This document shows positions 18,808 through 35,817 of a stretch of DNA of 37,423 nucleotides, piece by piece. The translations under genes were made by a program, and so were the position numbers. The stretch is from Candidatus Aminicenantes bacterium (lineage in GTDB: Bacteria > Acidobacteriota > Aminicenantia > UBA2199), in NCBI GenBank assembly GCA_023137075.1, contig JAGLQA010000240.1, positions 1 to 37,423 on the forward strand, in the 5' to 3' direction. The first letter of the stretch is position 1. Every line of letters begins with the position of its first letter. The notes under the pieces were generated by a model that searched no databases, was not told the DNA's origin, and worked only from the letters and a program-made list of their open reading frames with translations.

Positions 18808-18813
18808 TTGTTA

Positions 18814-18842
18814 ATTATAAATATTTTGGCCTGTCATGTCAA
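18814..18842 (-). promoter_or_regulatory. Perfect-consensus sigma70 promoter of def (TTGACA-17 bp-TATAAT), leaderless geometry
   Basis: On the minus strand, TTGACA is at 18842-18837, followed by a 17-nt spacer and TATAAT at 18819-18814. Only 6 nt (TAACAA) separate the -10 from the def ATG at 18807. There is no SD motif. Confidence 0.6.
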
Positions 18843-19067
18843 GAATGTGTGAAACCATTTCATCATGTTTTTTTCGTGAAGCAACGCCTATAGTTTTATT
18901 GTGTTTTTTAGCGAGTTAATTCAGTGAGTTTGAAATTTCAGTGAAACGAACCGGGCGCAAGTGAAACATGGACTGCGAATCCGTTCCCCCAAAAACACTT
19001 TCAGGAATCTTACTTACGGAGCAAAGGCAGCGAGCATGTTACACGGTTTCTAAAAAAAAGATTCGTT

Positions 19068-20450
19068 TTATTTGTGGAATTTTTTGATAAAATCCTCGAC
19101 TTCCGGAATGCCGCCCTGGTAAACCAGGTAACCGTTGTAAGGCTCACCCTCTGTGATGTCGCCGCCGATAGGAGTCAGCATGATTTCTTTGACCTTATCT
19201 AAATCGCCGGTCTGTCCTAAAGCCCAGCCTAACTTGATATAGGCCACTTCAGGCAGCATGTTTTCCGCCGGAATGACTCCCTTGCTCATCATGTCACGGC
19301 CCGTTTCGTATACATTCATGTGTACGAAACCCCACAGGGTTTGCACAGTCATGTAAACCGCCACCCCGGCTCGCCGGGCTCTTTCTAAGGCCGGGTAGAG
19401 GGGTTTGTTTACATGCCCGAGACCGGTGCCGGCGATTATAATTCCTTTGTAACCTTTCTCTACTACGGCGTCGATAATGTCCGGGTTCATGTTGGGATAA
19501 TAGTAGACCATGGTGACCCGCTCTTCAAAATAGGGATAGATGTCTACTTTTTTGTCTTTCCTGCGATGGTTGTAGTCCTCGCGCAGGGGGGTGATTTTAT
19601 CCCGCTTGACCATGGCCAGGGGAATATCTCCAATAGTTCTAAAGGCGGAACGGTATGAAGAGTGCATTTTCCTGACCCGGGTGCCGCGGTGCAGCAGGGC
19701 GTACTCATCGGAGGTCGGGCCGAACATGCAAACCAAAACTTCCGCTATATCGGCCTGGGAGGCAGCGGTGGTGGAATGGATCAGGTTCAGGGCGGCGTCG
19801 GATGAAGGCCGGTCGGAAGAACGCTGGGAGCCGACCATAACGATGGGCACCGGTGAGTTTTGCACCATGTAGGAAAGCGCGGCAGCGGTGTGATGCATGG
19901 TATCCGTGCCGTGACCGATAACAATGCCGTCAATCCCTTTCTCGATCTCTTTACCGATGGCTTTGGCCAGGGTGGTATACTGCTCCGGCCCCATGTTCTC
20001 GCTGAAAACAGCAAAGAGTTTTTCCGTGGATAAGTTGCATATATCGGCCAGTTCCGGGACCGCGCCGTAAAGCTCGCCCGGGGAAAAAGCGGGAATCACC
20101 GCACCGGTGCGGTAATCCAGGCGGGAAGCGATGGTTCCCCCGGTGCCGAACAACTTGATGTTGGGCTTTTCCGGAGAGGTGGGGAACTCCTTTTCCGGGA
20201 TTTTGTATTTCGCTTCTTTGTAGCCGTATTCTTTCATTTCGATAATAGAATCGATGGCAATGCCGATGTTGTACCCTGTATCCAGTTTTAATACTAAGTG
20301 TTTAGCGTCGTCATTTTCCGAACGGGGCAGGATAATCCCTTCAAACTCGCCGCGGGTGGTTTCGATCTTCGCTTCACTCCAGACCCGCACCTTAAATTTC
20401 TTCAATATCTCCAGCGCTTTTCCCTTGTAGCCTTTGAACATATCACTCAT
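19068..20450 (-). CDS. gatD: Glutamyl-tRNA(Gln) amidotransferase subunit D (archaeal-type, asparaginase-like)
   Basis: 460 aa. After a GatD-specific N-terminal domain come the asparaginase-family motifs FGTGGTIAS, GHGTDTMHHTAAALS and GSQRSSDRPSSDAALN. An 8-bp overlap links it to the upstream gatE. Confidence 0.85.
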   Translation of the reverse strand: MSDMFKGYKGKALEILKKFKVRVWSEAKIETTRGEFEGIILPRSENDDAKHLVLKLDTGYNIGIAIDSIIEMKEYGYKEAKYKIPEKEFPTSPEKPNIKLFGTGGTIASRLDYRTGAVIPAFSPGELYGAVPELADICNLSTEKLFAVFSENMGPEQYTTLAKAIGKEIEKGIDGIVIGHGTDTMHHTAAALSYMVQNSPVPIVMVGSQRSSDRPSSDAALNLIHSTTAASQADIAEVLVCMFGPTSDEYALLHRGTRVRKMHSSYRSAFRTIGDIPLAMVKRDKITPLREDYNHRRKDKKVDIYPYFEERVTMVYYYPNMNPDIIDAVVEKGYKGIIIAGTGLGHVNKPLYPALERARRAGVAVYMTVQTLWGFVHMNVYETGRDMMSKGVIPAENMLPEVAYIKLGWALGQTGDLDKVKEIMLTPIGGDITEGEPYNGYLVYQGGIPEVEDFIKKFHK

Positions 20451-22491
20451 CGTTGCCTCCGTTACCGGCAGCCACTTTAGTATGAAGTTCCGACAGCCTC
20501 ATATTTCCTAGTGCCGGGGGGCGTAATTGCCCCATTACCCATCGTATCATGGCCGATTCATTCTCGGAATTCGAGATATCGCTAAATTTTTCTTTTAATA
20601 CCGGGATACTGTCTAAAATGTCTTCTTCGGACTTTGGTTTGTACTCGATGGTAGTCAGTACCGACTCGAAATCCATATTCGGGTATTGGTAAACAACCGG
20701 CAGCATCTGTTTCAGGATGTCCCGTTTCAGTTTCTTTTTTATGATAAAATCGACCAGGTGATATATGCGGTCGTAAGTGAAGGGAGACGAAGGTGTGATC
20801 TGCCCTTCGATGTATTTCAAATGATGGCCGATCAAGCTGCCGATAAATTTTGGCGATTGGTTGAAGTCTTCGACAATTTTTTCAACCAGGGGGAACAGGT
20901 TCCGTTTTAACAGGTAGCAAAAGGTATCCCCCGGTATTTGCCATTTCTTCATTTGTTTCATGCAGTCCGAAACCTCGCGGGGAAGAATTTTCCGGATGCC
21001 CTGGATGTGGTCTTCTTCGATAGGGATGGGAGGTGAGTCGGTATCCGGGTACATGCGATTCGGTCCGGGCAGCACACGTTCAAAGATGGTGGTGCCGTCC
21101 GCGATGGATTTGCGCGTTTCATTGGGCACGCCTTCAAAGGCCCATTTACAGCGTTCTTCAATCGTTTCGATGGCGGTGGCGATATCGTCTTCCGGCCCCC
21201 ATAAGATCAATTGGGCATCATTATCTCCGCTCTTAAATAGTTTCCGCACCGCGGCAAAATCCACACCGTGTCCGTTGAGTGCCTGGTTGAATCCCTCTTC
21301 CTGCCGCAGGTTCGCAGGTGTATTCCCTTTTTTATTCATGTACCAGGGCTCGGAATGGATCATATTGGGCTTCTCGATGCAGGCGATTACTTTCAACCGG
21401 TCGCTCAATTCATTGGCAAAAGATTTTCCCGGCTGGGTAAAGAATGAGAGGATTCCTTTGAATCCCGGCAGGTTGACTGCCACCCAGTGGTATCGATTCG
21501 CCTTTTTCTTATCGATGAACGTAGGTATTTCAATAATATGGTTGGGGGAGACCGGTTTATGGGTCATCTTCCACTTTGCCGGGTTCGGGAAACGTTCATT
21601 CAAGGTTTTTTTTATCTCCAGCAGCGCTTTCTGGCGGAAGGCTTCGTTATGAGTCAACAGGGGTATCCGGGCGATATGGGCCACGCCTTTGATCTCCACC
21701 CGTGTTCCGCCATCGATACTGACATTCACATCCTCTCGGGCGGCGCCGATACCGGTTTGCACCTTGCCGGTGCTGCGGGTTAAAAACCGGATGTAGTGGG
21801 CTGCTTCCGCCGCTTCATCCGGGGTCAACAAGTCGGGATAGGTTACGGTTTCGATCAGCGGTATGCCCAAACGGTCTGTGGTATATATACGCTCATGGCC
21901 GATATCCGACACTTCCCGGCAGGATTCTTCCTCTATACTCAATTGAATGATACGGACTTTTTTGTTTTTCAGGGGAATCTCGCCTTCGATTCCCACGATG
22001 GCGGTGCGCTGGAAACCGGTGGGGATACTGCCGTCTAAGTACTGCTTCCGGGTAATATGCAGTTCTCCCACGACGTTGGTTTTCAGGAGCAGGGCCACTT
22101 CGATGGCAATATCGAGGGCTTCGCGATTGAGTGGAAAAGGGGGTGTGTCGTCGATATCGTAGGTACAGGCGGTTTGGTTGTTGATGCGGTAGGTGATATT
22201 TTTCTTCGTTTTAAACTCCATCAAGGCGGTGCCGTCATACTCACCCAATTCGCTCAAGGTCGGGCGCATGTGGCGCAAAATTTCGGCATTGAAGTCGTCA
22301 GGGTCATGGTAAATCCCCGCCGGACAGCGGCAGAAGAGTTTCTTTTTGGTTTTCAACTGTTGATGGATTTCATGGCCGCATTTAAATCCCAAATCGGAGT
22401 AGGTTTCCCGGGTGGCTTCTTTTTTCTCGACGTAACCGGTAATTTTTTTTGTATTGATGTAATTGTGTTCTGGGCTAAAATTATTCTTCAT
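20443..22491 (-). CDS. gatE: Glutamyl-tRNA(Gln) amidotransferase subunit E (archaeal-type, GatB paralogue)
   Basis: 682 aa. It has GFKCGHEIHQQL..KLFCRCP near the N-terminus, a cradle domain with an insertion, and a C-terminal helical tail domain. It is much longer than bacterial GatB and is paired with gatD. Confidence 0.8.
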   Translation of the reverse strand: MKNNFSPEHNYINTKKITGYVEKKEATRETYSDLGFKCGHEIHQQLKTKKKLFCRCPAGIYHDPDDFNAEILRHMRPTLSELGEYDGTALMEFKTKKNITYRINNQTACTYDIDDTPPFPLNREALDIAIEVALLLKTNVVGELHITRKQYLDGSIPTGFQRTAIVGIEGEIPLKNKKVRIIQLSIEEESCREVSDIGHERIYTTDRLGIPLIETVTYPDLLTPDEAAEAAHYIRFLTRSTGKVQTGIGAAREDVNVSIDGGTRVEIKGVAHIARIPLLTHNEAFRQKALLEIKKTLNERFPNPAKWKMTHKPVSPNHIIEIPTFIDKKKANRYHWVAVNLPGFKGILSFFTQPGKSFANELSDRLKVIACIEKPNMIHSEPWYMNKKGNTPANLRQEEGFNQALNGHGVDFAAVRKLFKSGDNDAQLILWGPEDDIATAIETIEERCKWAFEGVPNETRKSIADGTTIFERVLPGPNRMYPDTDSPPIPIEEDHIQGIRKILPREVSDCMKQMKKWQIPGDTFCYLLKRNLFPLVEKIVEDFNQSPKFIGSLIGHHLKYIEGQITPSSPFTYDRIYHLVDFIIKKKLKRDILKQMLPVVYQYPNMDFESVLTTIEYKPKSEEDILDSIPVLKEKFSDISNSENESAMIRWVMGQLRPPALGNMRLSELHTKVAAGNGGNDE

Positions 22492-22668
22492 GTTCTAATT
22501 CCTCAAATTCATAAAACGATTCATCCCAACCATGACAGGGGAGAGTGTAGATTTTTTACTTTTCATCATCTTTTATATCATAAATGCCCGAATTGTTCAA
22601 CAGTTTTCCGTCTTCAAAGCATTGTTTCCTTTTTGTACACCGGTTCCGAATATTTGACCGGGAGGTTA

Positions 22669-22697
22669 TTGACATAAGAGAATAATCGGTATATTAT
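22669..22697 (+). promoter_or_regulatory. Putative sigma70 promoter of mntP (TTGACA-17 bp-TATTAT)
   Basis: TTGACA at 22669-22674, an exact 17-nt spacer, and TATTAT at 22692-22697. This predicts a leader of about 84 nt. Confidence 0.45.
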
Positions 22698-22715
22698 CAA
22701 CCAACCTGCCATTCC

Positions 22716-22751
22716 GAAGTTGTGGTGGGAAAAAATGTTTCCCGGAACTTC
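22716..22751 (+). promoter_or_regulatory. Two-tier hairpin in the mntP leader
   Basis: GAAGTT (22716-22721) pairs with AACTTC (22746-22751), and GGGAAA (22727-22732) pairs with TTTCCC (22738-22743). No adjacent U-run follows, so this is not a canonical terminator. Confidence 0.4.
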
Positions 22752-22787
22752 TCTGTTGTCAACGATTTTTAGAAATTTCATCACTTT

Positions 22788-23351
22788 ATGGATTTATTAG
22801 AGATATTTACCGCAGCAGTCGCCCTGGCAATGGATGCCTTCTCCGTATCCATCTCCGCGGGTATGATCATAAAAAAACCGGGTTTCGGGCACTATTTCCG
22901 ACTCTCTTTTCATTTCGGTCTTTTCCAGTTTATGATGCCCATTGCCGGTTATTTTTTCGGCTCCTACTTAGAGAGCTATATCAAAGATTACGACCACTGG
23001 GTCGCTTTCGGACTGCTGGTTTTCATCGGTTTAAAAATGATACGAGAGGCCTTTTCTAAAAAGGAAGAGGTCTCCTTTAAACAAAAAGACCCGTCTCGTG
23101 GTTTTAACCTGGTTCTCCTCGCTGTTGCCACCAGTATCGATGCCCTGGCCGTGGGTTTGAGTCTCGGGGTGTTGAATCAACCGGTGTTGTTTCCCGGTAT
23201 TGTCATCGGTATTACCTGTTCCCTGTTTTCCATTGCCGGGGTATTTATCGGTAAAAAAGCCGGCAATGTGGTCGGGAGAAAGGCCGAAGCCATCGGCGGT
23301 ATTATGTTATTAATTATCGGAGTAAAAATACTCTACGAGCACCTTATTTGA
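22788..23351 (+). CDS. mntP: Manganese efflux pump MntP (DUF204 tandem repeat)
   Basis: 187 aa with six hydrophobic spans. The N-terminal AVALAMDAFSVS and internal AVATSIDALAVG repeats are typical of MntP/YebN. Confidence 0.8.
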   Translation: MDLLEIFTAAVALAMDAFSVSISAGMIIKKPGFGHYFRLSFHFGLFQFMMPIAGYFFGSYLESYIKDYDHWVAFGLLVFIGLKMIREAFSKKEEVSFKQKDPSRGFNLVLLAVATSIDALAVGLSLGVLNQPVLFPGIVIGITCSLFSIAGVFIGKKAGNVVGRKAEAIGGIMLLIIGVKILYEHLI

Positions 23352-23360
23352 GGAGTTATT

Positions 23361-24257
23361 ATGAAAAAACAAAGTAAAATCACTGTCTGGTTCCGGCAAA
23401 TCCGTGGTCCCTTCCTGGTACTGTCGGTGGTCCTGGTTTTGATCGGTATTGCCGCAGCGGGACGGGATGGTTATAATCCCCGTTGGTTCGATGCGGTACT
23501 TTTAATAACCGGGGTCGTGTTGGCCCATATTTCGGTAAACCTGTTTAATGAGTTATCCGATTATAAAACAAAGATCGATGAACATACGCTACCCACCCCT
23601 TTCAGCGGCGGCAGCGGCATGATGCAGGCCGGGTTGACCAACCCGAAAAAAGTTACCGGTGTGGCCTATACGGCCCTGATTTTAGCGGGATTCATCGGTC
23701 TCTATTTTTGTGTGGCCGGTTCCTGGGTTATTCTGGTGTTTATCATTTGCGGGGGAGTGGCTGTGCGTTTTTATACGTCCCACCTGGCCCGGTGGCTCTT
23801 AGGTGAATTCTTCAGCGGTCTGACCCTGGGTACCTTCGTGATCCTGGGCTCTTATATGGCGTTAACCGGCCGATTGAACATTGATATCCTGTTTATCTCT
23901 ATCCCGCCCGGGCTTTTGACTTTTCTGCTTCTTTTCCTGAATGAGTTCCCCGATGCGGAGGCGGACAGGAAGGGTGGGCGTTATCACTTAGTCATCCGTT
24001 TCGGTAAGAAAAAGAGCGCCATCATTTATATAGCTGTGCTGATTGTCATTTATATTCTAATCCTGACAGCGCCCTTTATTTTAAATATTCCAATTACCGT
24101 GCTGCTTGCCCTGCTAACCCTGCCAATCGCGAGCGCGGCCGCGGTTAAAATCGTAAAGTTTCACAGCAATACGCCGAAACTGGTCCCTGCCTTAGCCATG
24201 AATATCATGGTCGTAATTTTGACCGACCTGCTCCTGGCCATCGGCTATTTCATTTAA
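23361..24257 (+). CDS. UbiA-family aromatic prenyltransferase (MenA-like)
   Basis: 298 aa and polytopic. It has a first Asp-rich motif NELSDYKTKID (NxxxDxxxD) and a second DAEADRKGG. The substrate cannot be inferred. Confidence 0.7.
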   Translation: MKKQSKITVWFRQIRGPFLVLSVVLVLIGIAAAGRDGYNPRWFDAVLLITGVVLAHISVNLFNELSDYKTKIDEHTLPTPFSGGSGMMQAGLTNPKKVTGVAYTALILAGFIGLYFCVAGSWVILVFIICGGVAVRFYTSHLARWLLGEFFSGLTLGTFVILGSYMALTGRLNIDILFISIPPGLLTFLLLFLNEFPDAEADRKGGRYHLVIRFGKKKSAIIYIAVLIVIYILILTAPFILNIPITVLLALLTLPIASAAAVKIVKFHSNTPKLVPALAMNIMVVILTDLLLAIGYFI

Positions 24258-24325
24258 AATACATCCCGGTATAGTGAATTGCCTTTTCCAAGAAGCACAA
24301 AAAATTCGAAGGAATAATCGGACAA

Positions 24326-24347
24326 GGGGCTTGATAAATCAAGCCCC
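24326..24347 (+). terminator. Hairpin downstream of the prenyltransferase gene (possible terminator)
   Basis: GGGGCTTGA pairs with TCAAGCCCC around a TAAA loop. The T-rich tract (TTGTTTTTCCTTTTT) begins ~11 nt after the stem, which is not ideal spacing. Confidence 0.4.
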
Positions 24348-24382
24348 TACAGCCGGATTGTTTTTCCTTTTTGAAAAAAAAC

Positions 24383-24411
24383 TTGACAAAAAGTGAATTT
24401 AAAACTATAGT
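24383..24411 (+). promoter_or_regulatory. Putative sigma70 promoter of rho (A-tract, TTGACA-17 bp-TATAGT)
   Basis: TTGACA at 24383-24388 is preceded by an A8 tract. A 17-nt spacer follows, with TATAGT at 24406-24411. This leaves a leader of about 100 nt before AAGGAGGG and the ATG at 24517. Confidence 0.5.
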
Positions 24412-24516
24412 AGTATCCTATATCAAAAAAAAAACAGTACCACCGGTATTAAAAGAACAACCTTTAATTCCTTTAACAAAAAATGACGATTAAGCTTTAG
24501 AGCAAGGAGGGAATCC

Positions 24517-25629
24517 ATGCCGTCCGCAAAGGAAGGAAGTGGAGTACTGAAAAGACATAAAAAGAAAGCGAAGCACCTGCTGATAGACCCGGAAAAGTTT
24601 ATCGATAACGGCAACAGCGGTATCTTCGTGCCCCAGTTCCTTATGCAGAAGTATAAATTGGTGGAAGGGGCAGCCGTTACCGGCCCAATAAAGAACGGCC
24701 GGGGGGGGCCTATGCTGGCGGGTATAAAAACCGTCTGCGGGCTTTCACCGGAGGTTTTCAAAAAACGCAGAGCCTATACCCAGTTGACTGCCTTACCACC
24801 GGACCGGCGTTTCAACCTGGCCCTAGACGGTGAACCGGCCATGCGGATCGTTGACCTGGTGGCTCCCATTGCCAAAGGGACCCGAGGTTTGATCGTTTCG
24901 CCTCCCCGTGCCGGAAAAACCATCCTGTTGGAACAAATTGCCAAAGCCATTCATACTTTTGATCCGGAGACCAGGATCATCGTGCTGCTGGTTGACGAAC
25001 GTCCCGAAGAAGTCACCCATTTTCGCCGCAAGGTGAAGGCAGAGGTGTTAGCCAGTTCCAATGACCTTGATATCCGCCAGCACATCGAGTTAACCGAATT
25101 TGTAATGGCCCACGTGGTAGCCGAATTGGAGTGCGGTAAGAATGTAGTCGTACTGGTTGACAACCTGACTCGCATGTCCAGGGCGTTCAACTTAGGGGGG
25201 CGAAGTTCCCGGAAAAATAGAGGCCGCATCATGTCCGGCGGACTGCAGGCAGGTGCGCTGGAAATTCCGCGCCGGTTTTTCGGCCTGGCGCGCAACATAG
25301 AGAACGGCGGTTCCGTTACCATTATCGCTACCATATTGGTGGATACCGGTTCACGAATGGATCAATTGATATTCGAGGAATTTAAGGGTACCGGTAATTG
25401 TGAAATTATATTAGACCGCAGCCTGGCGGAAGCCCGGATTTTTCCGGCGATCAATATTAATGCCAGCGGTACGCGAAAAGAGGAGCTGCTCTACCCGGCC
25501 AATCATTATAAACAGATTTCCCGGCTGCGCCGGGCCCTGGCAAATCTCAATCCCAAAGATGGGATGGAATTATTCCTGAAATTTCTAAAAAAATATCCCA
25601 CTAACGAGGATTTCCTGAACGAAACCTGA
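24517..25629 (+). CDS. rho: Transcription termination factor Rho with a shortened, divergent N-terminal region
   Basis: 370 aa. It has Walker A (PPRAGKTILL), LLVDERPEEV, the Q/R-loop region, and FEEFKGTGNCEIILDR..RIFPAINI..SGTRKEELL, which aligns with E. coli Rho by eye. The N-terminal helix bundle is absent and the GFGFLR segment is not conserved. Confidence 0.9.
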   Translation: MPSAKEGSGVLKRHKKKAKHLLIDPEKFIDNGNSGIFVPQFLMQKYKLVEGAAVTGPIKNGRGGPMLAGIKTVCGLSPEVFKKRRAYTQLTALPPDRRFNLALDGEPAMRIVDLVAPIAKGTRGLIVSPPRAGKTILLEQIAKAIHTFDPETRIIVLLVDERPEEVTHFRRKVKAEVLASSNDLDIRQHIELTEFVMAHVVAELECGKNVVVLVDNLTRMSRAFNLGGRSSRKNRGRIMSGGLQAGALEIPRRFFGLARNIENGGSVTIIATILVDTGSRMDQLIFEEFKGTGNCEIILDRSLAEARIFPAININASGTRKEELLYPANHYKQISRLRRALANLNPKDGMELFLKFLKKYPTNEDFLNET

Positions 25630-25734
25630 TACCTGCTCGAACATTCCGGTTATATAAAAAAAATCCGCCTTCTATAGAAATACTCTTGAATATGCTCACT
25701 TTGACTTTTCAAAATTAGAATTGCCGGATTTTCA

Positions 25735-25763
25735 TTGACTTTAATCACAATCTATTGTAGAAT
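25735..25763 (+). promoter_or_regulatory. Putative sigma70 promoter (TTGACT-17 bp-TAGAAT) bracketed by an ATCACA/TGTGAT inverted repeat
   Basis: TTGACT at 25735-25740, a 17-nt spacer, and TAGAAT at 25758-25763. The inverted repeat ATCACA (25744-25749) / TGTGAT (25763-25768) spans the spacer and the -10. Confidence 0.5.
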
Positions 25764-25862
25764 GTGATCTTATGATGATGGAACTGTTTTATAAACGAGT
25801 TCTTGTCGGGGGACACCTTATGCATCCGGATCAGATTACATTAAAAAATCAGGAGATAAAAC

Positions 25863-25985
25863 ATGGACAAAATGATTGAAAAATTAAGTCTGAAAACCTT
25901 AAGTCTTGAAGAGTTGAACAAAGTCAAGGGAGGTTCGCCCCCCATTTTTATTATACCTCCGGGGATACCCGGTTCCGGTGGTTAA
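25863..25985 (+). CDS. 40-aa precursor peptide with a double-glycine (bacteriocin-type) leader
   Basis: This ORF is not in the track (<60 aa). AGGAG at 25851-25855 lies 7 nt before the ATG. The translation is MDKMIEKLSLKTLSLEELNKVKGG / SPPIFIIPPGIPGSGG. The leader matches LSxxELxxVxGG at positions -12, -11, -8, -7, -4, -2 and -1. Confidence 0.6.
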   Translation: MDKMIEKLSLKTLSLEELNKVKGGSPPIFIIPPGIPGSGG

Positions 25986-26066
25986 ATAGACTGAAAGGGC
26001 AAATCTAAGACCCGGAAAAAGCGTTTCTCTCATAAGAGGGTGATTTTTACTCCCTGGAGGATTAGT

Positions 26067-27191
26067 CTATTTTAAACTTTCGCGGTTTTCGAAGGAGCGG
26101 TTGATGGAAAATTCGCTGAAATCCGTATCCCACTCACCCTGGATTATGTAGTGAGCCAGGTGTTTGGCAATGGCTGGCCCGAACATAAAACCGTGTCCGC
26201 TCATCCCGGAGGCCACGTATAACCCGTCGACCGGCGATTCACCCACCAGGGGATTCCCATCCGGGGTCATGGTATAACATCCGGCCCAATGTCTCAATAT
26301 GGAGGCATTCTTGATGGCCGGGACAAGACGGGTCATGCGCCAGGCAACATTGGGCACAAATTCGAAGGACGCGTCATCCCTGATGCCGGGCACATTGGGG
26401 ATTGGGGTATAGCAGCCGCAAATCTGACCGCTGATGAATTGATTAAAATAACAGCCGTCCTCCCGGTAGTCGACCACCATGGGTTCTAAAAACTTCGGCA
26501 TGCGTTCCGTGATAATGGCTTCGTGCCGTTCCGGGGATAAAGGCAAATCTAACCCGATTGTTTGAGCGATTTCCGCGGTCCAGGGGCCGGCGCACAGGAG
26601 AACTTTTTCACTCTCGATCCGGGTGCCGTCCTGTAACATGATAACAAAAGGATTGGTTTTTTCTATTTTCTCTACTTTGTTGTGAAGGAATAAAGCGCCC
26701 TTATGTCTTTCGATTTGTTGTTTATAGCCTTTTAAAACCGCGAAGGGAAAAGCCTGGCCGTCGTCCGGGCAGTAAGCGGCAGCGTGAAGATTCTCCAGGT
26801 TCAGATGGGGCACCACTTTGTTTGCTTCACCGGGTGTTAATAAGGAGACATTCACCTTTTCTTTTTTCTGTATTTCGATATTGGCTTTAAAAATATCCAC
26901 CATTTTTTCGCTGTGGGCCAGCAGCAGGTAGCCGCCCTGGTGAAACTCCACCGGGAAACCGAACTCCTCTTCCATTTTAGAAAATAGTTCGATGCTTTCC
27001 CTCATTAACCGTATGGAGGTGGAGGTGGAGAATTGCTGCCTGATGCCGCCGATGCAGCGCCCGGTTGACCCGGAGCCGAGATATTCTCGTTCTATTAGCG
27101 CTATTTTAATTCCTTTTCGGGCCAGGTAGCAGCCTGTGCCCATCCCGATGATGCCTCCACCGATAATCGCAACATCATAATTGTGTTTCAT
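26067..27191 (-). CDS. FAD-dependent oxidoreductase, DAO family (sarcosine oxidase beta / L-proline dehydrogenase beta / HcnC-like)
   Basis: I moved the start to the ATG at 27191 (MKHNYDVAIIGGGIIGMGTGCYLARKG, GxGxxG at the N-terminus), which forms an ATGA overlap with the upstream gene. The track start at 27326 would add 45 non-homologous residues. Confidence 0.75.
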   Translation of the reverse strand: MKHNYDVAIIGGGIIGMGTGCYLARKGIKIALIEREYLGSGSTGRCIGGIRQQFSTSTSIRLMRESIELFSKMEEEFGFPVEFHQGGYLLLAHSEKMVDIFKANIEIQKKEKVNVSLLTPGEANKVVPHLNLENLHAAAYCPDDGQAFPFAVLKGYKQQIERHKGALFLHNKVEKIEKTNPFVIMLQDGTRIESEKVLLCAGPWTAEIAQTIGLDLPLSPERHEAIITERMPKFLEPMVVDYREDGCYFNQFISGQICGCYTPIPNVPGIRDDASFEFVPNVAWRMTRLVPAIKNASILRHWAGCYTMTPDGNPLVGESPVDGLYVASGMSGHGFMFGPAIAKHLAHYIIQGEWDTDFSEFSINRSFENRESLK

Positions 27192-27466
27192 GATTCCTCT
27201 CCTTCTACTTGAATAAAGGCGCTGACTGTCACCGGTTTTAACGGCGGCCTTTTTCTCCATTCTTCGATGTTTTGCAGGCTTGTATTTAACTTTCGCGCCA
27301 GCATGGACCGCAGGATAGGCCCACATGTCCTACCCTGGCAGGGTCCCATCCCGGCCCGGAGGAAACGTTTAATCTCTTCAAGGGTGGTGATTCCCGAATC
27401 GAGGGCTTCTTTCACCATTTCTTCCGTAATATCTTCGCATCTGCAAATCAGTATGTTATCACTCAT
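27188..27466 (-). CDS. Small BFD-like [2Fe-2S]-binding protein
   Basis: 92 aa. The CRCEDIT..GMGPCQGRTCGP pattern is characteristic of BFD-like 2Fe-2S domains. ATGA-type overlaps occur at both ends. Confidence 0.7.
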   Translation of the reverse strand: MSDNILICRCEDITEEMVKEALDSGITTLEEIKRFLRAGMGPCQGRTCGPILRSMLARKLNTSLQNIEEWRKRPPLKPVTVSAFIQVEGEES

Positions 27467-27954
27467 TTTTTCCTCCTGAAACCCCTGACGGTTTTCACGA
27501 GATCTTTTTCCATTTTCAATGAGACGGAAAGGGTGCGGTCATGTTGTTTTAGTTTTTTTACCTTTTCGATTTCCCCCTCTCCCACGACCTTTCCGGCCCG
27601 GTCGAGCAGGTCGACAATTTCGCCCTGGTCGGGAGGTTCGATTTCATAGGGAATAGTAACCACCCCGTGATTTTTCGACAAATCGACCATAAAAATGGCC
27701 AGGCCCGGGCAGAAGCCGAGACAGATACCGCAGCCGGTGCATTTTTCAAAATCGATGGTCGGCACGGCGTTTATGTTGCCTGCCACTTTTATGGCGCCAA
27801 CGGGGCAGTATTCCATGCAGGGATTACAGGGAATTTCCTGGCAGCATTCGATGACGGCCGCCGCCCTTTTTTTCATTCGTTCTTCTGAAGGGAATTCGAT
27901 CTGATCGTTAGAAAAATGACCCTTTCTTATACAATCCATCTTACTGCAGTCCAT
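27463..27954 (-). CDS. 4Fe-4S ferredoxin-domain protein
   Basis: I chose the start at 27954 (MDCSKMDC..) because GAGGAGG lies upstream. The Cys motifs CNPCMEYCP and CTGCGICLGFCP are present. Confidence 0.65.
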   Translation of the reverse strand: MDCSKMDCIRKGHFSNDQIEFPSEERMKKRAAAVIECCQEIPCNPCMEYCPVGAIKVAGNINAVPTIDFEKCTGCGICLGFCPGLAIFMVDLSKNHGVVTIPYEIEPPDQGEIVDLLDRAGKVVGEGEIEKVKKLKQHDRTLSVSLKMEKDLVKTVRGFRRKK

Positions 27955-29380
27955 TTTTTCTTGCCTCCTCTTCCAGTTTTTGATTACCGATGCGGATTTT
28001 CTCACCAAAGGGGCCTTCTCTTAATTCCTTTAGTTCCAACCGGTTCTTTTCCCGTTCTTCTATCAACTCCGGGCTGCCGCCGCTGACCTTTTCGGCTGCG
28101 CTCAAGCCGGCTATTCGTCCTTCCATCATCGCGGACGAGGCTTCCTCGATTCCGGAAATATCACCGGCAATAAAAACACCGGGGAGCGAGGTCTCCATAT
28201 TTTCGTTATGGGGGTTGATATATCCACCCAATTCGGGAATATAGGTTTGTCTTGCCCCGGCCTGGGATAAAATTTCGATCGAGGGTGACAGACCGACTGC
28301 CAGGCCCACGGTATCGCAGTCGAATTTCTTTTCTGTCCCGGCGATGGGCTGCCATTGTTTATCGACTTCTACGACTTCAGCGCCTTCCACGCGGCTGCTG
28401 CCGAATACGCGTGAGATGGTATGAGATGTGTATATCGGGACTCCCAGGCGTTTGATTTTCGCCGAATGGACTAAGTAAGCGCCGATTCTCGGCAGTCCCT
28501 CGATGACGGCGGCGACTTCGACACCGGCCTGAAGCAGTTGATAGGCGACTATCGCACCGATATTCCCCGCGCCCACCATCAATACTTTTTTCCCCGGGGT
28601 TATGCCGTAAACATTCATCAGGGTCTGGATCGCTCCGGCGCCGTACACTCCGGGCAGGTCGTTCCCGATGAAGGGCACCATTTTTTCCGAAGCGCCGGTA
28701 GCGATTAAAATCGTTTTTGCCTTGACTCGCACATATTTCCCCTGCCTCTCTACTCCGAGAATATTTCCCGGGTAATACCCGATAACGGAAGAGGATGTCC
28801 AGGTTTCAATTTCTTTTTTACGGGCATCTTTGATCAAAATTCCGGCAATATCGATGCCCCTGACCCCGGCATAATGTGAACGGCTGCCGAAAAATTTATG
28901 GGTTTGTTTGATTAATTGACCGCCTAAAAGAAAATTTTCCTCTATGATTAAGGGTTTGATGCCGTAGCGGGCGGCATACAGGGCGGCGGAAAGACCGGCC
29001 GGTCCCCCGCCTACGACGGCGAAATCGGTTTCGACGGTCGGCGTCTCTTTAAATTCGGGATACCCGGTAAAGGATTCCGGTGAGACAACGGACTTAGATT
29101 GCGGTTTGACTCTCATGCCCTCTTTCACCGGTATGATACAGGTGCGCATATTGGGTACGCCATCCACTTCCATGATGCATGACGCGCATTTCCCGATGGC
29201 GCAGTATAATCCCCTGGGGCGATGGAAACGAAAACTTTCGGATAATGTGGTAATACCGGCGGCATGGAGCGCGGCCGTAATGGACTCGCCCTCATAGGCT
29301 GTAACCGGTTGGCCTTCATAGTAAATGGTAATCTTTTTTTCTCGGGCAAACTCGAGAATAGGATGTTTGTCAATCCTCAT
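27941..29380 (-). CDS. Fused [2Fe-2S] plus FAD/NAD(P)-binding oxidoreductase (sarcosine oxidase alpha / proline dehydrogenase alpha-like)
   Basis: 479 aa. The N-terminal Fer2_4-like segment (YEGESITAAL..CAIGKCASCIMEVDG..MRTC) is followed by two dinucleotide folds (VVGGGPAGLSAALYAA and VGAGNIGAIVAYQL). An AGGAG precedes the ATG. Confidence 0.75.
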   Translation of the reverse strand: MRIDKHPILEFAREKKITIYYEGQPVTAYEGESITAALHAAGITTLSESFRFHRPRGLYCAIGKCASCIMEVDGVPNMRTCIIPVKEGMRVKPQSKSVVSPESFTGYPEFKETPTVETDFAVVGGGPAGLSAALYAARYGIKPLIIEENFLLGGQLIKQTHKFFGSRSHYAGVRGIDIAGILIKDARKKEIETWTSSSVIGYYPGNILGVERQGKYVRVKAKTILIATGASEKMVPFIGNDLPGVYGAGAIQTLMNVYGITPGKKVLMVGAGNIGAIVAYQLLQAGVEVAAVIEGLPRIGAYLVHSAKIKRLGVPIYTSHTISRVFGSSRVEGAEVVEVDKQWQPIAGTEKKFDCDTVGLAVGLSPSIEILSQAGARQTYIPELGGYINPHNENMETSLPGVFIAGDISGIEEASSAMMEGRIAGLSAAEKVSGGSPELIEEREKNRLELKELREGPFGEKIRIGNQKLEEEARKNGLQ

Positions 29381-29443
29381 GTCAGCTCCTTATCGACATA
29401 GTGTGGAAGGTGTAGAAATGTAATACATATGACGGTTTAGCAT

Positions 29444-29480
29444 TGATATAATTTATATCATAACAATATAATCAAGTCAA
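29444..29480 (-). promoter_or_regulatory. Putative sigma70 promoter (TTGACT-17 bp-TATAAA) with a 17-bp perfect palindrome over the -10
   Basis: On the minus strand, TTGACT is at 29480-29475, followed by a 17-nt spacer and TATAAA at 29457-29452. The palindrome TGATATAA-T-TTATATCA occupies 29444-29460. Confidence 0.5.
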
Positions 29481-29556
29481 TAATAAATCCGGAATCCGGT
29501 AGGGCGTACTCTTGCGGCCTCCCGGAAAAAATTTAATGGGATTTTTATTTTATTGC

Positions 29557-30975
29557 CTAGCGGTTGTCGTGATAGCCCAACAGGGAGGCAATGGATACGG
29601 GCTTGACCGGGGGCCTGACGGAAAACCGGCCCACTTCCTGCGGGGATTTTTGCGTTAAGGCGCTCAGGATATCATAGATAATGGGGCCGCAAATACGGCC
29701 CTGGCAATTGCCCATCCCGGTCCGTACCGCCGTTTTTAAGGAGACCGGCGTATTAAAATCTGCTTGCACGGCTTTCTTAATATCTGCCATGGTGACATCT
29801 TCGCAGCGGCATACAATGGTTTCGTCGGGGATATCCAGGATCGTACTCTCCGGGATTTTGTAGAGTAAATTGAAATATTCGCCAAACTTGAGGTGGTGTT
29901 TTCTTTCCCGGCTCAAGGATTTCAACCTAAGAAAATAGTCATCCTCCGCGATTTTATCGAATCTTCTTAAGATCGCTAAGGCCGCTGTTTTTCCTTCATT
30001 GATGGATTTCAGAGCGCCACCTATACCGGTGATTTCACCTCCCGCGAATATGTCTTCTCTGGTAGTGAGCATTTCATCGTTCACCCTGACGACCCAGCCG
30101 CCTTTCGCGTCAGAGTAGTCCAACTTGCATTCCGCTAATTGGGGCAGTTCGATATTGGCTGTAAAACCGTAACCCACGGCCAGCGCCCCGGTTTTATGGA
30201 TTTTTTCAGTCCCGGGAATGATACTGCCCGATTTGTTGACCCGGGCCGTCACTACCTCTTGCAGTGATTCTTTTCCCCTGGCCTCGACTATCTTCCGCCT
30301 GAATTTAACCGGCACACCTGAGAGAAAAATTTTCGATAGAAATTTCGCGCCTTCAACGAACTTTGGGAACTGGTGGAAAAGTTGGCTGATTAATTTCATC
30401 TTGTCCAACATGGCGGTCTGTTCAAGAATGGCTGTTACCCCGGCGCGGTTCCGCAGCGTTTCGTAAGCCACGGCAAAGAGAAAGAGCCCCGAACCGCCAA
30501 TCAGGATTTTTTCGGCGAGTAAAACCCCGGAGGTTTTCATTAAGACCTGGGCCAGGCCGGTGGAATAAACACCCGGTAGTGTCCAGCCTTTAAAGGGGAA
30601 AAATCTCTCCCTGGCACCGGTGGCAAATAATATAACATCAAAGTTGACGGTTATGACCTCTTTTTCGTCCACTTCGACCAGGATTTTCTTTTCCGGGTAA
30701 ATACCGATAACCACGCCCCGGTTGATAATCGTCACTTTTTTTGTTTTCAAACATTCGATGAATTTAAAGCCGATTTTTTTGACATAATCCGGATGATAGA
30801 CGGGGTATTCGCTTAATTTATCAGGAATTTTTCGCAGCAATTGGCCGCCGATGTAGATGTTTTCGTCGATCAGTACGATATCCAGGTTCGACTCGGAAAG
30901 TATATTTGCCGCGACGATACCGGCAAAGCCGCTGCCCACGATGACGACATTGAATTTATTTTTCCTATTACTCAT
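29557..30975 (-). CDS. NAD(P)/FAD-dependent oxidoreductase with a C-terminal BFD-like [2Fe-2S] domain (HcnB / opine oxidase A-like)
   Basis: I moved the start to 30975 (MSNRKNKFNVVIVGSGFAGIVAANIL), which overlaps the stop of the upstream gene by 8 bp. The C-terminus reads CRCEDVT..GMGNCQGRICGP. Confidence 0.75.
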   Translation of the reverse strand: MSNRKNKFNVVIVGSGFAGIVAANILSESNLDIVLIDENIYIGGQLLRKIPDKLSEYPVYHPDYVKKIGFKFIECLKTKKVTIINRGVVIGIYPEKKILVEVDEKEVITVNFDVILFATGARERFFPFKGWTLPGVYSTGLAQVLMKTSGVLLAEKILIGGSGLFLFAVAYETLRNRAGVTAILEQTAMLDKMKLISQLFHQFPKFVEGAKFLSKIFLSGVPVKFRRKIVEARGKESLQEVVTARVNKSGSIIPGTEKIHKTGALAVGYGFTANIELPQLAECKLDYSDAKGGWVVRVNDEMLTTREDIFAGGEITGIGGALKSINEGKTAALAILRRFDKIAEDDYFLRLKSLSRERKHHLKFGEYFNLLYKIPESTILDIPDETIVCRCEDVTMADIKKAVQADFNTPVSLKTAVRTGMGNCQGRICGPIIYDILSALTQKSPQEVGRFSVRPPVKPVSIASLLGYHDNR

Positions 30976-31249
30976 CAAATGCGATCTCCATCTTATTCTC
31001 GACCTGGCACATGCAGGCCCTCTTGTTGGGGATACCGTTGATGGTAACCAGGCATTCGAAGCAGACACCCATTCCACACAGGGCGCCCCGTTTTCCCTTT
31101 AGAAAAGCACTTCTTTTCAGCGATTTGTACCCGGAGGCGATGAGTGCGGCCAGCACGGTTTCGCCTTCATAGGCGGGTAATTGGTTCCCGTTCACCAGGA
31201 TATTTACTTTTTCTTTTCTTATTATTTGTTTTATTCGCAAGCCCTTCAT
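30968..31249 (-). CDS. Small [2Fe-2S]-binding protein (HcnA / sarcosine oxidase alpha N-terminal-like)
   Basis: 93 aa. The pattern YEGETVLAAL..CGMGVCFECLVTING..RACMC matches the Fer2_4 type. Confidence 0.7.
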   Translation of the reverse strand: MKGLRIKQIIRKEKVNILVNGNQLPAYEGETVLAALIASGYKSLKRSAFLKGKRGALCGMGVCFECLVTINGIPNKRACMCQVENKMEIAFDE

Positions 31250-31465
31250 GAGTTACGGTTTCCTTAGAGAAGAATGTACAATTAAGTTCTATATTCTGTC
31301 AAGTCTAAAATCGGTAATTTTTAAAAATTTTAATTCAATATCGATTTTTTTACCCCTTTGCCTGACTGCCTGTCTTTAGATGGTTGAGGGCGGTTGGAAA
31401 ATATGTTATAAACCTTTTTTTAAAAAACAAGTATAATACATGTTTGGAATAATTCAGGAGTTAAA

Positions 31466-34996: not shown

Positions 34997-35071
34997 AAAA
35001 TGAAGTCCGCCTTAATATTTTACCCAAAGCAGCCCGGAAAACAAAATGATTTATATTAAACGGAAATTGAG

Positions 35072-35100
35072 TTGCAAATAGTTCCAAAAGGATTTATAAT
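35072..35100 (+). promoter_or_regulatory. Putative sigma70 promoter of the mntA-hepT pair (TTGCAA-17 bp-TATAAT)
   Basis: TTGCAA at 35072-35077, a 17-nt spacer, and TATAAT at 35095-35100. GAGGA lies 4 nt before the ATG at 35145. Confidence 0.5.
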
Positions 35101-35144
35101 CAGTATCTGCTTGAAATAAGCGAAAGTATAATGCCGAGGAAAAA

Positions 35145-35438: not shown

Positions 35439-35442
35439 TTGT

Positions 35443-35787: not shown

Positions 35788-35817
35788 GGTTGGATCTAAA
35801 GAAAAGTTCTTTTAATG

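What the first reader, a model, noticed from the sequence alone, without database searches (positions are those of the whole stretch)
19068..22491. Archaeal-type GatDE amidotransferase in an otherwise bacterial gene context
Seen in sequence: two overlapping minus-strand genes (8-bp overlap) encode two proteins. One is an asparaginase-like protein with GTGGTIAS, GHGTDTM and SQRSSDRPSSDA motifs behind an extra N-terminal domain, which is the GatD pattern. The other is a 682-aa GatB paralogue with GHEIHQQL and KLFCRCP motifs, which is the GatE pattern. Established knowledge: GatDE is regarded as the archaea-specific Glu-tRNA(Gln) amidotransferase, while bacteria use GatCAB or GlnRS. The same contig carries unmistakably bacterial genes: the PilQ secretin, Rho, Def, RsmB, UvrC, SppA and NikR. 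Inference: this reflects either inter-domain transfer into a deep-branching bacterial lineage or a chimeric assembly. The gene order is gatE then gatD. GatE has a ~30-aa N-terminal extension and is longer than the roughly 620-aa archaeal proteins I recall.
Basis: partly seen in the sequence, partly recalled or inferred. Interest (0 to 1): 0.6.

Follow-up and report, generated by a model that had tools for sequence, protein, structure and literature searches.

The report
Archaeal-type GatDE amidotransferase in a bacterium
This bacterium (an Aminicenantes-type Acidobacteriota MAG) carries an intact gene pair for GatDE, the enzyme that makes glutamine directly on its tRNA and that reviews still call archaea-only. 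The pair belongs to a large bacterial branch of the family which, in this lineage, replaced the usual bacterial enzyme GatCAB and sits alongside an ordinary glutaminyl-tRNA synthetase.

Summary
gatE (20443-22491, minus strand) and gatD (19068-20450, minus strand) overlap by 8 bp. Both pass NCBI's curated GatE and GatD cut-offs, keep every known catalytic residue, and are under strong purifying selection.

This is not a chimera. Two independent assemblies reproduce gatD, gatE and 10 kb of bacterial genes on the gatE side. 33 of the 36 other genomes searched in the host family (this genome makes 34 of 37) carry a GatE above cut-off, and more than 500 bacterial genome records carry close relatives. 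The gatD|def junction at about 18976 is, however, an unverified assembly branch point.

Within the host class there is a clean switch. Families with GatCAB have two GluRS genes and no GlnRS. Families with GatDE have GlnRS and no GatCAB. This genome also keeps a GluRS paralogue that lacks the anticodon-discriminating arginine, so a complete indirect route (GluRS2-like enzyme, then GatDE) plausibly runs beside GlnRS.

Many relatives keep GatDE without that paralogue, which is unexplained. Two distant bacteria have GatDE but neither GlnRS nor GatB.

The nearest archaeal relatives are Asgard (Heimdall-type) archaea, but the root of the tree is unresolved (AU p = 0.52). I found no description of bacterial GatDE in the searchable literature.

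The parts
20443..22491 (-). gatE: the tRNA-dependent kinase/transamidase subunit (682 aa)
   Evidence: NF003107 465.7 bits (cut-off 456) and TIGR00134 399.1 bits (cut-off 319.6). Aligns over residues 33-639 with M. thermautotrophicus GatE 2D6F_C at E = 2.4e-84. The Mg2+ ligands His15, Glu157 and Glu184 are invariant in 91 bacterial homologues. The Foldseek top hits are archaeal GatE chains.
19068..20450 (-). gatD: the asparaginase-type glutaminase subunit (460 aa)
   Evidence: NF003217 516.6 bits (cut-off 310) and TIGR02153 514.8 bits (cut-off 324). Pfam GatD_N + Asparaginase + Asparaginase_C. Matches 1ZQ1_A at E = 3e-122 and 2D6F_A at E = 8e-120. T101, T177, D178 and K254 are invariant in 77 bacterial homologues.
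20443..20450 (-). 8-bp overlap ATGAGTGA: the gatD start codon lies inside the end of gatE, the arrangement typical of translational coupling
   Evidence: Sequence read. The same overlap is called on an independent assembly. The gatE-then-gatD order is conserved in essentially all bacterial loci fetched.
22402..22491 (-). Part of gatE encoding the bacterial-clade N-terminal extension of about 28-30 aa (motif F-x-x-x-x-N-Y ... G-Y-V/I-P-R)
   Evidence: Absent from the archaeal crystal-structure proteins. Conserved in named bacterial homologues from several phyla.
22500..22504 (-). GAGGA ribosome-binding site, 8 nt before the gatE ATG
   Evidence: Read directly from the sequence.
22572..22600 (-). 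Possible promoter of the operon: TTGAAC, 17 nt, TATAAA (weak; my own reading)
   Evidence: Sequence. The consensus scan did not list it, because it requires T at position 6 of the -10 hexamer.
18808..19067 (.). gatD-def intergenic region containing an assembly branch point at 18975/18976
   Evidence: NCBI contig DAOWKK010000302.1 and an ENA scaffold match window 18976-32490 at 99.9% identity. To the left of 18976 the NCBI contig continues into a NACHT gene, and the ENA scaffold ends exactly there.
18814..18842 (-). Perfect sigma-70 consensus promoter of def (TTGACA, 17 nt, TATAAT). It marks def as a separate transcription unit.
   Evidence: 12 of 12 matches.

Best explanation
The two genes encode a functional heterodimer-type GatDE amidotransferase of a bacterial branch of the family.

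Proposed mechanism: GatE binds Glu-tRNA(Gln), phosphorylates the glutamate side chain with ATP, and amidates it with ammonia released by GatD from glutamine or asparagine, giving Gln-tRNA(Gln).

In this genome the mischarged substrate is most likely made by a second, GluRS2-like glutamyl-tRNA synthetase (contig C779). That enzyme has a Tyr where discriminating GluRS has the anticodon-reading Arg358. The indirect route therefore runs in parallel with a normal GlnRS.

Evolutionary inference: an ancestor of this family, which like its sister families had GatCAB, two GluRS genes and no GlnRS, acquired GlnRS (placed next to gltX) and GatDE, then lost GatCAB.

Shown here: the identity and intactness of both genes, lineage-wide inheritance, purifying selection, and the co-occurrence pattern. 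Inferred: the substrate, the partnership with the C779 GluRS, and the order of events.
For: Family membership and intact active sites; PMC2330236 gives the roles of those residues.

dN/dS is about 0.06-0.10 for gatE and 0.02-0.05 for gatD.

Among the 60 relatives searched, GatE is above cut-off in 33 of 36 genomes of the host family f1 and in both genomes of family f3. The 23 genomes of the other families show no GatE above cut-off; 22 of them show GatB-sized hits instead.

GlnRS is present in exactly the GatDE families (33 of 36 relatives in f1, 2 of 2 in f3) and in none of the GatCAB families (0 of 23).

AsnRS and AsnB are present in both groups, so the switch concerns glutamine only.

The own genome has no GatB or GatA above cut-off.

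Two GluRS paralogues exist. Type B has Arg at the T. thermophilus Arg358 column in all 53 class sequences. Type A lacks it: N, E, G or T in GatCAB genomes, and Tyr in all 12 GatDE genomes, including C779 here.

The tRNA features that amidotransferases use are present. Both tRNA-Gln have U1-A72 and G73. The tRNA-Glu genes have G1-U72, and tRNA-Glu(CUC) has a D-loop one base longer than that of tRNA-Gln(CUG).

Two distant GatDE-bearing bacteria show neither GlnRS nor GatB, so GatDE would be their only route.
Against: About half of the genera in the host family, and both f3 genomes, keep GatDE although they have lost the non-Arg GluRS and retain only an Arg358-type GluRS plus GlnRS. On paper that leaves GatDE without a substrate.

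The Arg358 rule is a heuristic, not a proof of specificity.

Archaeal GatDE reads A1-U72 (PMC2330236), whereas the tRNA-Gln genes here have U1-A72. Recognition must therefore have changed, and this is untested.

The YqeY-like tail scores below Pfam's cut-off (18.5 bits against 27).

The genome is a 902-contig MAG, about 91% complete, so absences in this genome alone are weak evidence. The family-wide pattern carries that argument.
Confidence: 0.65

Rival explanations
1. Neofunctionalised GatDE. In GlnRS-containing bacteria the enzyme no longer serves bulk Gln-tRNA(Gln) synthesis. It might instead act on another substrate, or have a conditional role such as clearing traces of Glu-tRNA(Gln), charging under glutamine starvation, or acting on a different aminoacyl-tRNA.
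For: GatDE co-occurs with GlnRS in 35 of 38 relatives in the two GatDE families and in 8 of 10 distant carriers. Many carriers have only an Arg358-type GluRS. The bacterial clade is only 31% identical to archaeal GatE and has a conserved clade-specific N-terminal extension.
Against: All kinase and glutaminase residues are invariant. The helical/tail region is retained and confidently modelled. Two carriers appear to have GatDE as their only route. This genome does keep a non-Arg GluRS. The asparagine route is not the explanation, because AsnRS and AsnB are present everywhere.
Confidence: 0.22
2. Assembly or binning artefact: an archaeal fragment wrongly joined to a bacterial contig, or contamination of the MAG.
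For: The gatD|def junction at about 18976 differs between assemblies, and one contig ends exactly there. The MAG has an estimated 3.8% contamination. Read-level evidence could not be obtained.
Against: Window 18976-32490 (gatD, gatE, mntP, a UbiA-family gene, rho, an oxidoreductase cluster, sppA) is reproduced at 99.9% identity in two independent assemblies. GatE is present in 33 of 36 family relatives and on contigs up to several Mb, including closed chromosomes. The GC content of the pair (0.47-0.52) is close to that of its neighbours. The pair has a bacterial-style GAGGA ribosome-binding site.
Confidence: 0.02
3. Ancient vertical inheritance. GatDE was already present in the common ancestor of Bacteria and Archaea, as Sheppard and Soll suggested for LUCA, and survived in scattered bacterial lineages without any inter-domain transfer.
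For: The bacterial clade is monophyletic (support 99-100) and deeply separated from the archaeal sequences. A tree with all archaeal sequences as one clade is not rejected (p-AU 0.52).
Against: The distribution is very patchy: within one class only two families carry GatDE, and there it replaces GatCAB. GatD is 66-87% identical across different phyla (median 77%), and flanking genes differ even within a genus. Both observations fit horizontal spread among bacteria. In the GatB-rooted maximum-likelihood trees the clade sits next to Heimdallarchaeota inside an Asgard grade.
Confidence: 0.1

Closest known systems
Archaeal GatDE (Methanothermobacter thermautotrophicus, PDB 2D6F with tRNA-Gln; Pyrococcus abyssi, PDB 1ZQ1)
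   Same: Two-subunit architecture. GatD has the N-terminal domain plus an asparaginase fold with the Thr/Thr-Asp-Lys catalytic set. GatE has the cradle domain, the inserted domain and the helical/tail region, with Mg2+ ligands His15, Glu157 and Glu184. Full-length alignments and best fold matches.
   Different: The host is a bacterium. Identity is only about 31% for GatE and 47% for GatD. GatE has a conserved N-terminal extension of about 28 aa and a longer loop at about residues 384-407. The cognate tRNA-Gln has U1-A72 rather than A1-U72. It coexists with GlnRS, which reviews describe as absent from archaea.
Bacterial GatCAB
   Same: Same chemistry; GatB is a paralogue of GatE. It is the enzyme that sister families of the same class use with two GluRS genes. 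It recognises U1-A72 and an extra D-loop base in tRNA-Glu (PMC2330236).
   Different: It uses a different glutaminase (the amidase GatA plus GatC), has no inserted domain, and also serves Asp-tRNA(Asn). No GatB or GatA above cut-off is present in this genome.
Bacteria with apparently redundant direct and indirect routes (Deinococcus, Thermus, Bdellovibrio: GlnRS + AsnRS + GatCAB)
   Same: A tRNA-dependent amidotransferase is retained alongside the direct synthetases (PMC4206432 abstract).
   Different: Here AsnRS and AsnB are present in both pathway groups, and GatDE is known only as a glutamine-specific enzyme.
Dual-GluRS systems (Helicobacter pylori GluRS1/GluRS2; Thermotoga maritima GluRS2 transamidosome, PDB 3AKZ/3AL0)
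   Same: A second GluRS lacking the Arg358-type anticodon reader feeds tRNA-Gln to an amidotransferase. The class studied here shows the same two-paralogue layout.
   Different: The partner amidotransferase here is GatDE, and the non-Arg residue is a Tyr specific to the GatDE-bearing family. The specificity of this paralogue is untested.

Membership tests
GatD (Glu-tRNA(Gln) amidotransferase subunit D) | Scores above the curated equivalog cut-offs and clearly above plain asparaginase models | tested here: met
   NF003217 516.6 bits (cut-off 310); TIGR02153 514.8 bits (cut-off 324). The type I asparaginase model scores 384.5 bits.
GatD (Glu-tRNA(Gln) amidotransferase subunit D) | GatD-specific N-terminal domain ahead of the asparaginase N and C domains | tested here: met
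   PF18195 residues 26-69, PF00710 residues 97-287, PF17763 residues 311-424.
GatD (Glu-tRNA(Gln) amidotransferase subunit D) | Thr nucleophile plus Thr-Asp-Lys catalytic set (M. thermautotrophicus T101, T177, D178, K254) | tested here: met
   All four align and are invariant in 77 bacterial homologues. Their role is described in PMC2330236.
GatE (Glu-tRNA(Gln) amidotransferase subunit E) | Scores above the curated equivalog cut-offs and above GatB models | tested here: met
   NF003107 465.7 bits (cut-off 456, a narrow margin); TIGR00134 399.1 bits (cut-off 319.6). The best GatB model scores 127.5 bits against a cut-off of 338.
GatE (Glu-tRNA(Gln) amidotransferase subunit E) | Mg2+ ligands His15, Glu157 and Glu184 of the kinase pocket | tested here: met
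   Aligned; invariant in 91 bacterial homologues; essentiality is cited from PMC2330236.
GatE (Glu-tRNA(Gln) amidotransferase subunit E) | Domain layout: cradle domain interrupted by an inserted domain, then a helical domain and a YqeY-like tail | tested here: inconclusive
   Pfam GatB_N spans residues 37-496, which implies the insertion. The alignment to 2D6F_C reaches residue 578 of 619. The AlphaFold model has a confident all-helical region at residues 490-675, and the best fold hits are GatE chains with TM-scores normalised to the target of 0.60-0.65. However, Pfam GatB_Yqey scores only 18.5 bits against a cut-off of 27, and the overall model confidence is moderate (pLDDT 71).
GatDE system | Adjacent, co-transcribed gatD and gatE genes encoding a complex | tested here: met
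   8-bp overlap. The pair is conserved in about 75 of the 90 bacterial loci examined; where gatD is missing, many of the contigs end first. Formation of the complex itself was not tested.
GatDE system | Substrate tRNA-Gln carries the archaeal A1-U72 first base pair that GatDE reads | tested here: not met
   Both tRNA-Gln genes have U1-A72 and G73. The same tRNAs are conserved at 85-97% identity across the class.
GatDE system | A non-discriminating GluRS supplies Glu-tRNA(Gln) | tested here: inconclusive
   A GluRS paralogue on C779 has Tyr at the Arg358 column. This is suggestive only. Half of the family's genera lack this paralogue.
GatDE system | It is the sole route to Gln-tRNA(Gln), with no GlnRS in the genome, as in archaea | tested here: not met
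   GlnRS scores 771 bits (cut-off 425.8) on C188 and is present in 35 of 38 relatives that belong to the two GatDE families.
GatDE system | The host is an archaeon ('archaeal signature protein') | tested here: not met
   Bacterial genes lie on the same verified contig segment, including Rho, SppA and MntP. The nearest named relatives are Aminicenantes/Acidobacteriota MAGs.
GatDE system | Glu-tRNA(Gln)-dependent kinase, glutaminase and transamidase activity | not testable with these tools
   This requires biochemistry.

The most novel reading that the evidence does not exclude
Bacterial GatDE and GlnRS form a deliberately paired, co-inherited dual system for glutamine decoding that has repeatedly displaced GatCAB. 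GatDE would then be a standing second route or clean-up enzyme, kept even where no dedicated GluRS2 remains. That in turn would mean that the 'discriminating' Arg358-type GluRS of these bacteria still makes Glu-tRNA(Gln), or that GatDE has a substrate not yet recognised. The gene traffic with Heimdall-type Asgard archaea may have been reciprocal: GatDE moving to bacteria and bacterial-type GlnRS moving to Heimdall archaea.
Probability: 0.25. Interest if true: 0.75.

Novelty: new variant of a known kind. Interest (0 to 1): 0.6.

Why it matters
GatDE is used in reviews as a textbook 'archaeal signature protein'. Its supposed absence from bacteria, and the absence of GlnRS from archaea, underpin arguments about how glutamine entered the genetic code and about the co-evolution of tRNA-Gln with its enzymes.

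A large, conserved bacterial GatDE clade that works in a U1-A72 tRNA context and coexists with GlnRS contradicts the first premise. It also provides a natural experiment.

Within a single bacterial class, sister families use either GatCAB with two GluRS genes, or GlnRS with GatDE and with or without the second GluRS. This makes testable how one route to Gln-tRNA replaces another, and why two seemingly redundant routes are kept.

A cultured carrier with a complete genome (Oceanirhabdus sp. W0125-5) makes the genetics feasible.

Tried and rejected
1. Asparagine hypothesis: GatDE is retained to make Asn on tRNA, as GatCAB is in Deinococcus and Thermus. Rejected. AsnRS is present in 58 of 61 genomes and AsnB in 54 of 61, in both pathway groups.

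2. Imported-tRNA hypothesis: one of the two very different tRNA-Gln genes came in with GlnRS or GatDE and divides the labour. Rejected as an import. Both isoacceptors are conserved at 85-97% identity across all families of the class, whichever pathway they use. A functional division of labour remains untested.

3. Conserved neighbourhood. None exists beyond the gene pair. Even the same-genus genome has different flanks, with tRNA-Gln(CUG) and tRNA-Glu(CUC) upstream and an ornithine-carbamoyltransferase-like gene downstream.

4. RNA elements in the window. No tRNA was found and no Rfam family reached its gathering score.

I used independent assemblies instead.

6. Rooting. GatB-rooted trees place the bacteria beside Heimdall, but the AU test does not reject archaeal monophyly (p = 0.52). 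A first AU run timed out and used a wrongly defined constraint set; I discarded it.

7. The first PDB search with the C779 GluRS did not print the T. thermophilus alignment. I obtained the Arg358 anchor with a type B GluRS query. PMC2777447 does not mention Arg358.

8. Literature. Five full-text searches found no description of bacterial GatDE. Sheppard and Soll 2008 (J Mol Biol) is not held.

9. GatC was not searched for. With both GatA and GatB absent, this does not change the conclusion.


Full report
OBSERVATION. The two minus-strand ORFs are exactly as described: 19068..20450 (460 aa) and 20443..22491 (682 aa). They overlap by 8 bp, with the gatD start codon inside the end of gatE (ATGAGTGA). 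A GAGGA ribosome-binding site lies 8 nt before the gatE ATG.

The 460-aa protein has the GatD-specific N-terminal domain plus both asparaginase domains. It scores 516.6 and 514.8 bits on the two curated GatD equivalog models, whose cut-offs are 310 and 324. The 682-aa protein scores 465.7 and 399.1 bits on the two GatE equivalogs (cut-offs 456 and 319.6), against 127 bits on the best GatB model.

Both proteins align end to end with the crystallised archaeal subunits. GatE matches 2D6F_C at E = 2.4e-84 and 1ZQ1_C at 1.3e-78. GatD matches 1ZQ1_A at 3e-122 and 2D6F_A at 8e-120.

The residues known to be essential are all in place. These are GatE His15, Glu157 and Glu184 (Mg2+ ligands) and the GatD Thr nucleophile with its Thr-Asp-Lys set (PMC2330236). 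They are invariant in 91 GatE and 77 GatD bacterial homologues.

An AlphaFold2 model of GatE (pLDDT 71; the C-terminal helical region is about 90) finds the archaeal GatE chains first. Their E-values are about 1e-29, with TM-scores normalised to the target of 0.60-0.65, well ahead of the GatB chains at about 1e-15.

dN/dS against the closest DNA relatives is about 0.06-0.10 for gatE and 0.02-0.05 for gatD, with dS saturated. These are working genes.

IS THE CONTEXT REALLY BACTERIAL, AND IS THE CONTIG SOUND? The window is a whole 37.4-kb contig of a MAG that is 5.24 Mb in 902 contigs, with estimated completeness 90.8% and contamination 3.8%. Its other genes are bacterial: UvrC, PilM/N/O/P/Q, RsmB, Def, MntP, Rho, SppA, TsaC and NikR.

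The protein index holds the identical GatE on other contigs. An NCBI MAG contig of 38 kb and an ENA scaffold are 99.9% identical to window 18976-32490. That stretch covers gatD, gatE, mntP, a UbiA-family gene, rho, an oxidoreductase cluster and sppA. The linkage of GatDE to bacterial genes on the gatE side is therefore independently reproduced.

On the other side the assemblies part company at 18975/18976, which is 92 bp past the gatD stop. The NCBI contig runs into an 839-aa NACHT/nSTAND gene that is absent from this MAG. The ENA scaffold ends exactly there. The window continues to def. This is an assembly branch point, most simply explained by strain variation at a defence-gene insertion site.

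def has its own perfect sigma-70 consensus promoter, so gatE-gatD is a two-gene unit in any case.

A LINEAGE-WIDE AND WIDESPREAD TRAIT. Among 60 relatives, GatE above cut-off is present in 33 of 36 genomes of the same taxonomic family (18 genera) and in both genomes of a second family of the class. The other seven families have no GatE above cut-off, and 22 of their 23 genomes show GatB-sized hits of about 470-500 aa instead.

The nearest named proteins are labelled Aminicenantes or Acidobacteriota.

In one-genome-per-species contigs, at least 504 loci encode a relative. The top 80 are 57-73% identical and come from Bacteroidales (many), Zixibacteria, Ignavibacteria, Cloacimonadota, Calditrichota, Lentimicrobium, Marinifilum, a closed Zixibacteria chromosome, and the cultured Oceanirhabdus sp. 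W0125-5.

The gatE-then-gatD order is conserved in essentially all of these loci. Nothing else in the neighbourhood is conserved, not even in the same genus.

Bacterial sequences are much closer to each other than to the two crystallised archaeal enzymes. Median identity is 60% for GatE and 77% for GatD among bacteria, against 31% and 47% to the archaeal proteins. The archaeal pair differ from each other less than that, at 52% and 58%.

The bacterial clade shares an N-terminal extension of about 28 aa on GatE.

WHAT ELSE IS IN THE GENOME. There is no GatB; the only hit is GatE itself. There is no GatA; an amidase scores 114 bits against a cut-off of 481. There is a full GlnRS at 771 bits and a full AsnRS at 636 bits.

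Across the 60 relatives the pattern is clean. GlnRS occurs in 33 of 36 genomes of the GatDE family and in both genomes of the second GatDE family. It occurs in none of the 23 GatCAB-type genomes. AsnRS (58 of 61 genomes, this one included) and AsnB (54 of 61) occur in both groups. So the switch is GatCAB versus GlnRS plus GatDE, it concerns glutamine only, and a tRNA-dependent asparagine route is not the reason for keeping GatDE.

The same holds further afield. Of 10 distant GatDE carriers, 8 have GlnRS and only 2 have a true GatB. Two of them, including a Clostridiaceae MAG with a 5.27-Mb contig, show neither. In those, GatDE would be the only way to make Gln-tRNA(Gln).

WHO COULD FEED GatDE? 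The class has two GluRS paralogues.

Type B is most similar to the discriminating T. thermophilus enzyme. It has Arg at the column of T. thermophilus Arg358 in all 53 class sequences examined. In many GatDE-type genomes where both genes sit on one contig, it lies directly beside glnS (coordinates).

Type A lacks that Arg. It has Asn, Glu, Gly or Thr in GatCAB-type genomes, with one exception that has Arg. It has Tyr in all 12 GatDE-type genomes that keep it, and those copies form one clade with support 99.

That Arg358 reads anticodon base 36, and that non-discriminating enzymes replace it, is established knowledge that I recall from the T. thermophilus and T. elongatus GluRS structural papers. 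It is a heuristic.

This genome has both types. Type A is on C779 (Tyr), and a truncated type B lies at the end of contig C362. Each groups with the corresponding copy from the same-genus genome, which argues against contamination.

Every GatCAB-type genome has both paralogues, as expected for a dedicated indirect route. About half of the genera in the GatDE family, and the second GatDE family, have lost type A yet keep GatDE. I cannot explain that. Either their Arg-type GluRS still mischarges tRNA-Gln, or GatDE does something more.

THE tRNAs. Both tRNA-Gln genes have the bacterial U1-A72 pair and G73. The tRNA-Glu genes have G1-U72, and tRNA-Glu(CUC) has a D-loop one base longer than that of tRNA-Gln(CUG). 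The two features that amidotransferases use to tell tRNA-Gln from tRNA-Glu are therefore available: a weak first pair, and an extra D-loop base in tRNA-Glu (PMC2330236). The first pair, however, is the reverse of the A1-U72 that archaeal GatDE reads.

The two tRNA-Gln isoacceptors differ strongly from each other. Both are nonetheless conserved at 85-97% identity in every family of the class. They are ancestral, and in the GatCAB-only families both must be served by the indirect route.

ORIGIN. An exhaustive HMMER search of 1.84 billion cluster representatives gave 603 proteins with E <= 1e-30.

Trees of the full-length ones split into two groups with maximal support. One holds every named bacterial sequence, and its labelled deep branches are a Deltaproteobacteria MAG and candidate division CSSED10-310. 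The other holds the two crystal-structure proteins.

The labelled basal branches on the archaeal side are Heimdall-, Thor- and Odinarchaeota.

With GatB as outgroup (IQ-TREE, LG+C20), the bacteria are monophyletic (support 99-100) and sister to the Heimdall sequence (90-98), inside a grade with Thor and Odin (81-87).

An AU test, however, does not reject a tree in which all archaeal sequences form one clade (p = 0.52, equal likelihood). The root, and hence the direction and age of the transfer, is unresolved. Most representatives also carry no label.

The patchy distribution, the high cross-phylum identity and the variable flanks favour a single ancient entry followed by horizontal spread among bacteria.

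Earlier notes of this scan from other genomes reach the same Asgard neighbour. They are leads, not independent evidence.

KNOWN OR NEW? NCBI and JGI pipelines already name these proteins GatD and GatE in bacterial MAGs. [quoted passage not shown] Five full-text searches found nothing on bacterial GatDE. The library lacks most subscription journals.

This scan has met the same clade in well over a hundred other genomes. The window is therefore one more member of a recurrent, apparently undescribed phenomenon.

What this case adds is the within-class switch (GatCAB with two GluRS, versus GlnRS with GatDE), the Tyr-type GluRS paralogue, and the observation that GatDE outlives that paralogue.

VERDICT. 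This is a genuine, functional bacterial-clade GatDE operon. It is not a chimera, although its def-side junction is unverified. The most likely role is as a Glu-tRNA(Gln) amidotransferase running beside GlnRS and fed here by a GluRS2-like enzyme (confidence 0.65). The main rival is a changed or conditional role (0.22).

Noticed in passing
Own genome, contig C274:1369-2311 (outside the window): A tRNA with anticodon CUA, called tRNA-Pyl by ARAGORN (1369-1440), is followed at once by a 299-aa ORF. That ORF scores 351.5 bits on the PylS C-terminal model (cut-off 178). This looks like a bacterial-type pylT-pylS pair, and hence possible pyrrolysine decoding of UAG, in this Aminicenantes-type MAG. 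A tRNA-Sec is also present at C454:4679-4773.
   Followed up: partly
window 18976 and locus L217:13637-16156: A near-identical sister assembly carries an 839-aa NACHT/nSTAND (NNH2) gene directly downstream of gatD, where the window has def. The gene is absent from this MAG. It is likely a strain-variable defence-gene insertion site, and it is the cause of contig breaks at this point.
   Followed up: partly
window 35001-37000: A low-GC tail (0.32, against about 0.45 elsewhere) holds a 114-aa ORF with a HepT-type RNase toxin C-terminal match (35443-35787) and a 386-aa DUF4062 protein (35828-36988). It looks like a small foreign toxin-antitoxin or defence islet.
   Followed up: partly
Relatives G002, G003-G005, G010, G012-G014, G016-G019, G023, G025-G029, G033, G038, G048 (coordinates): glnS lies directly beside gltX (the Arg358-type GluRS) in many genomes of the two GatDE families. 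In G002, G019 and G029, asnS is adjacent as well. In a subset of these genomes the neighbouring gltX forms a separate clade that groups with T. thermophilus GluRS. It may be a replacement, or it may be divergent because of composition bias.
   Followed up: partly
Same-genus genome G001, locus L213:8635-8803: The tRNA-Gln(CUG)-tRNA-Glu(CUC) pair lies about 740 bp upstream of gatE on the same strand. In this genome the same tRNA pair sits on a separate 4.2-kb contig (C277). A physical link between GatDE and its presumed substrate tRNA may exist in some strains.
   Followed up: no
Own genome C277:2842-2916 and C692:193-267: Both tRNA-Glu genes have a G1-U72 wobble as their first acceptor pair, rather than the usual G1-C72.
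   Followed up: no
Relative G005:C2:385294-387059: GatE is split into three consecutive reading frames of 293, 220 and 292 aa in a 4-contig assembly with only 73% estimated completeness. This is either a pseudogene or indel errors from long-read sequencing.
   Followed up: no
window 24517-25629: The Rho ORF is only 370 aa and matches the Rho model from position 67 onward. As called, the N-terminal part of the RNA-binding region is missing. It is either a short-form Rho or a miscalled start.
   Followed up: no
window 26067-31077: A cluster of sarcosine-oxidase-like and FAD/NAD oxidoreductase subunits (SoxA-like twice, SoxB-like, a ferredoxin) lies between rho and sppA. None of the proteins reaches its family cut-off, and the function is unassigned.
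   Followed up: no
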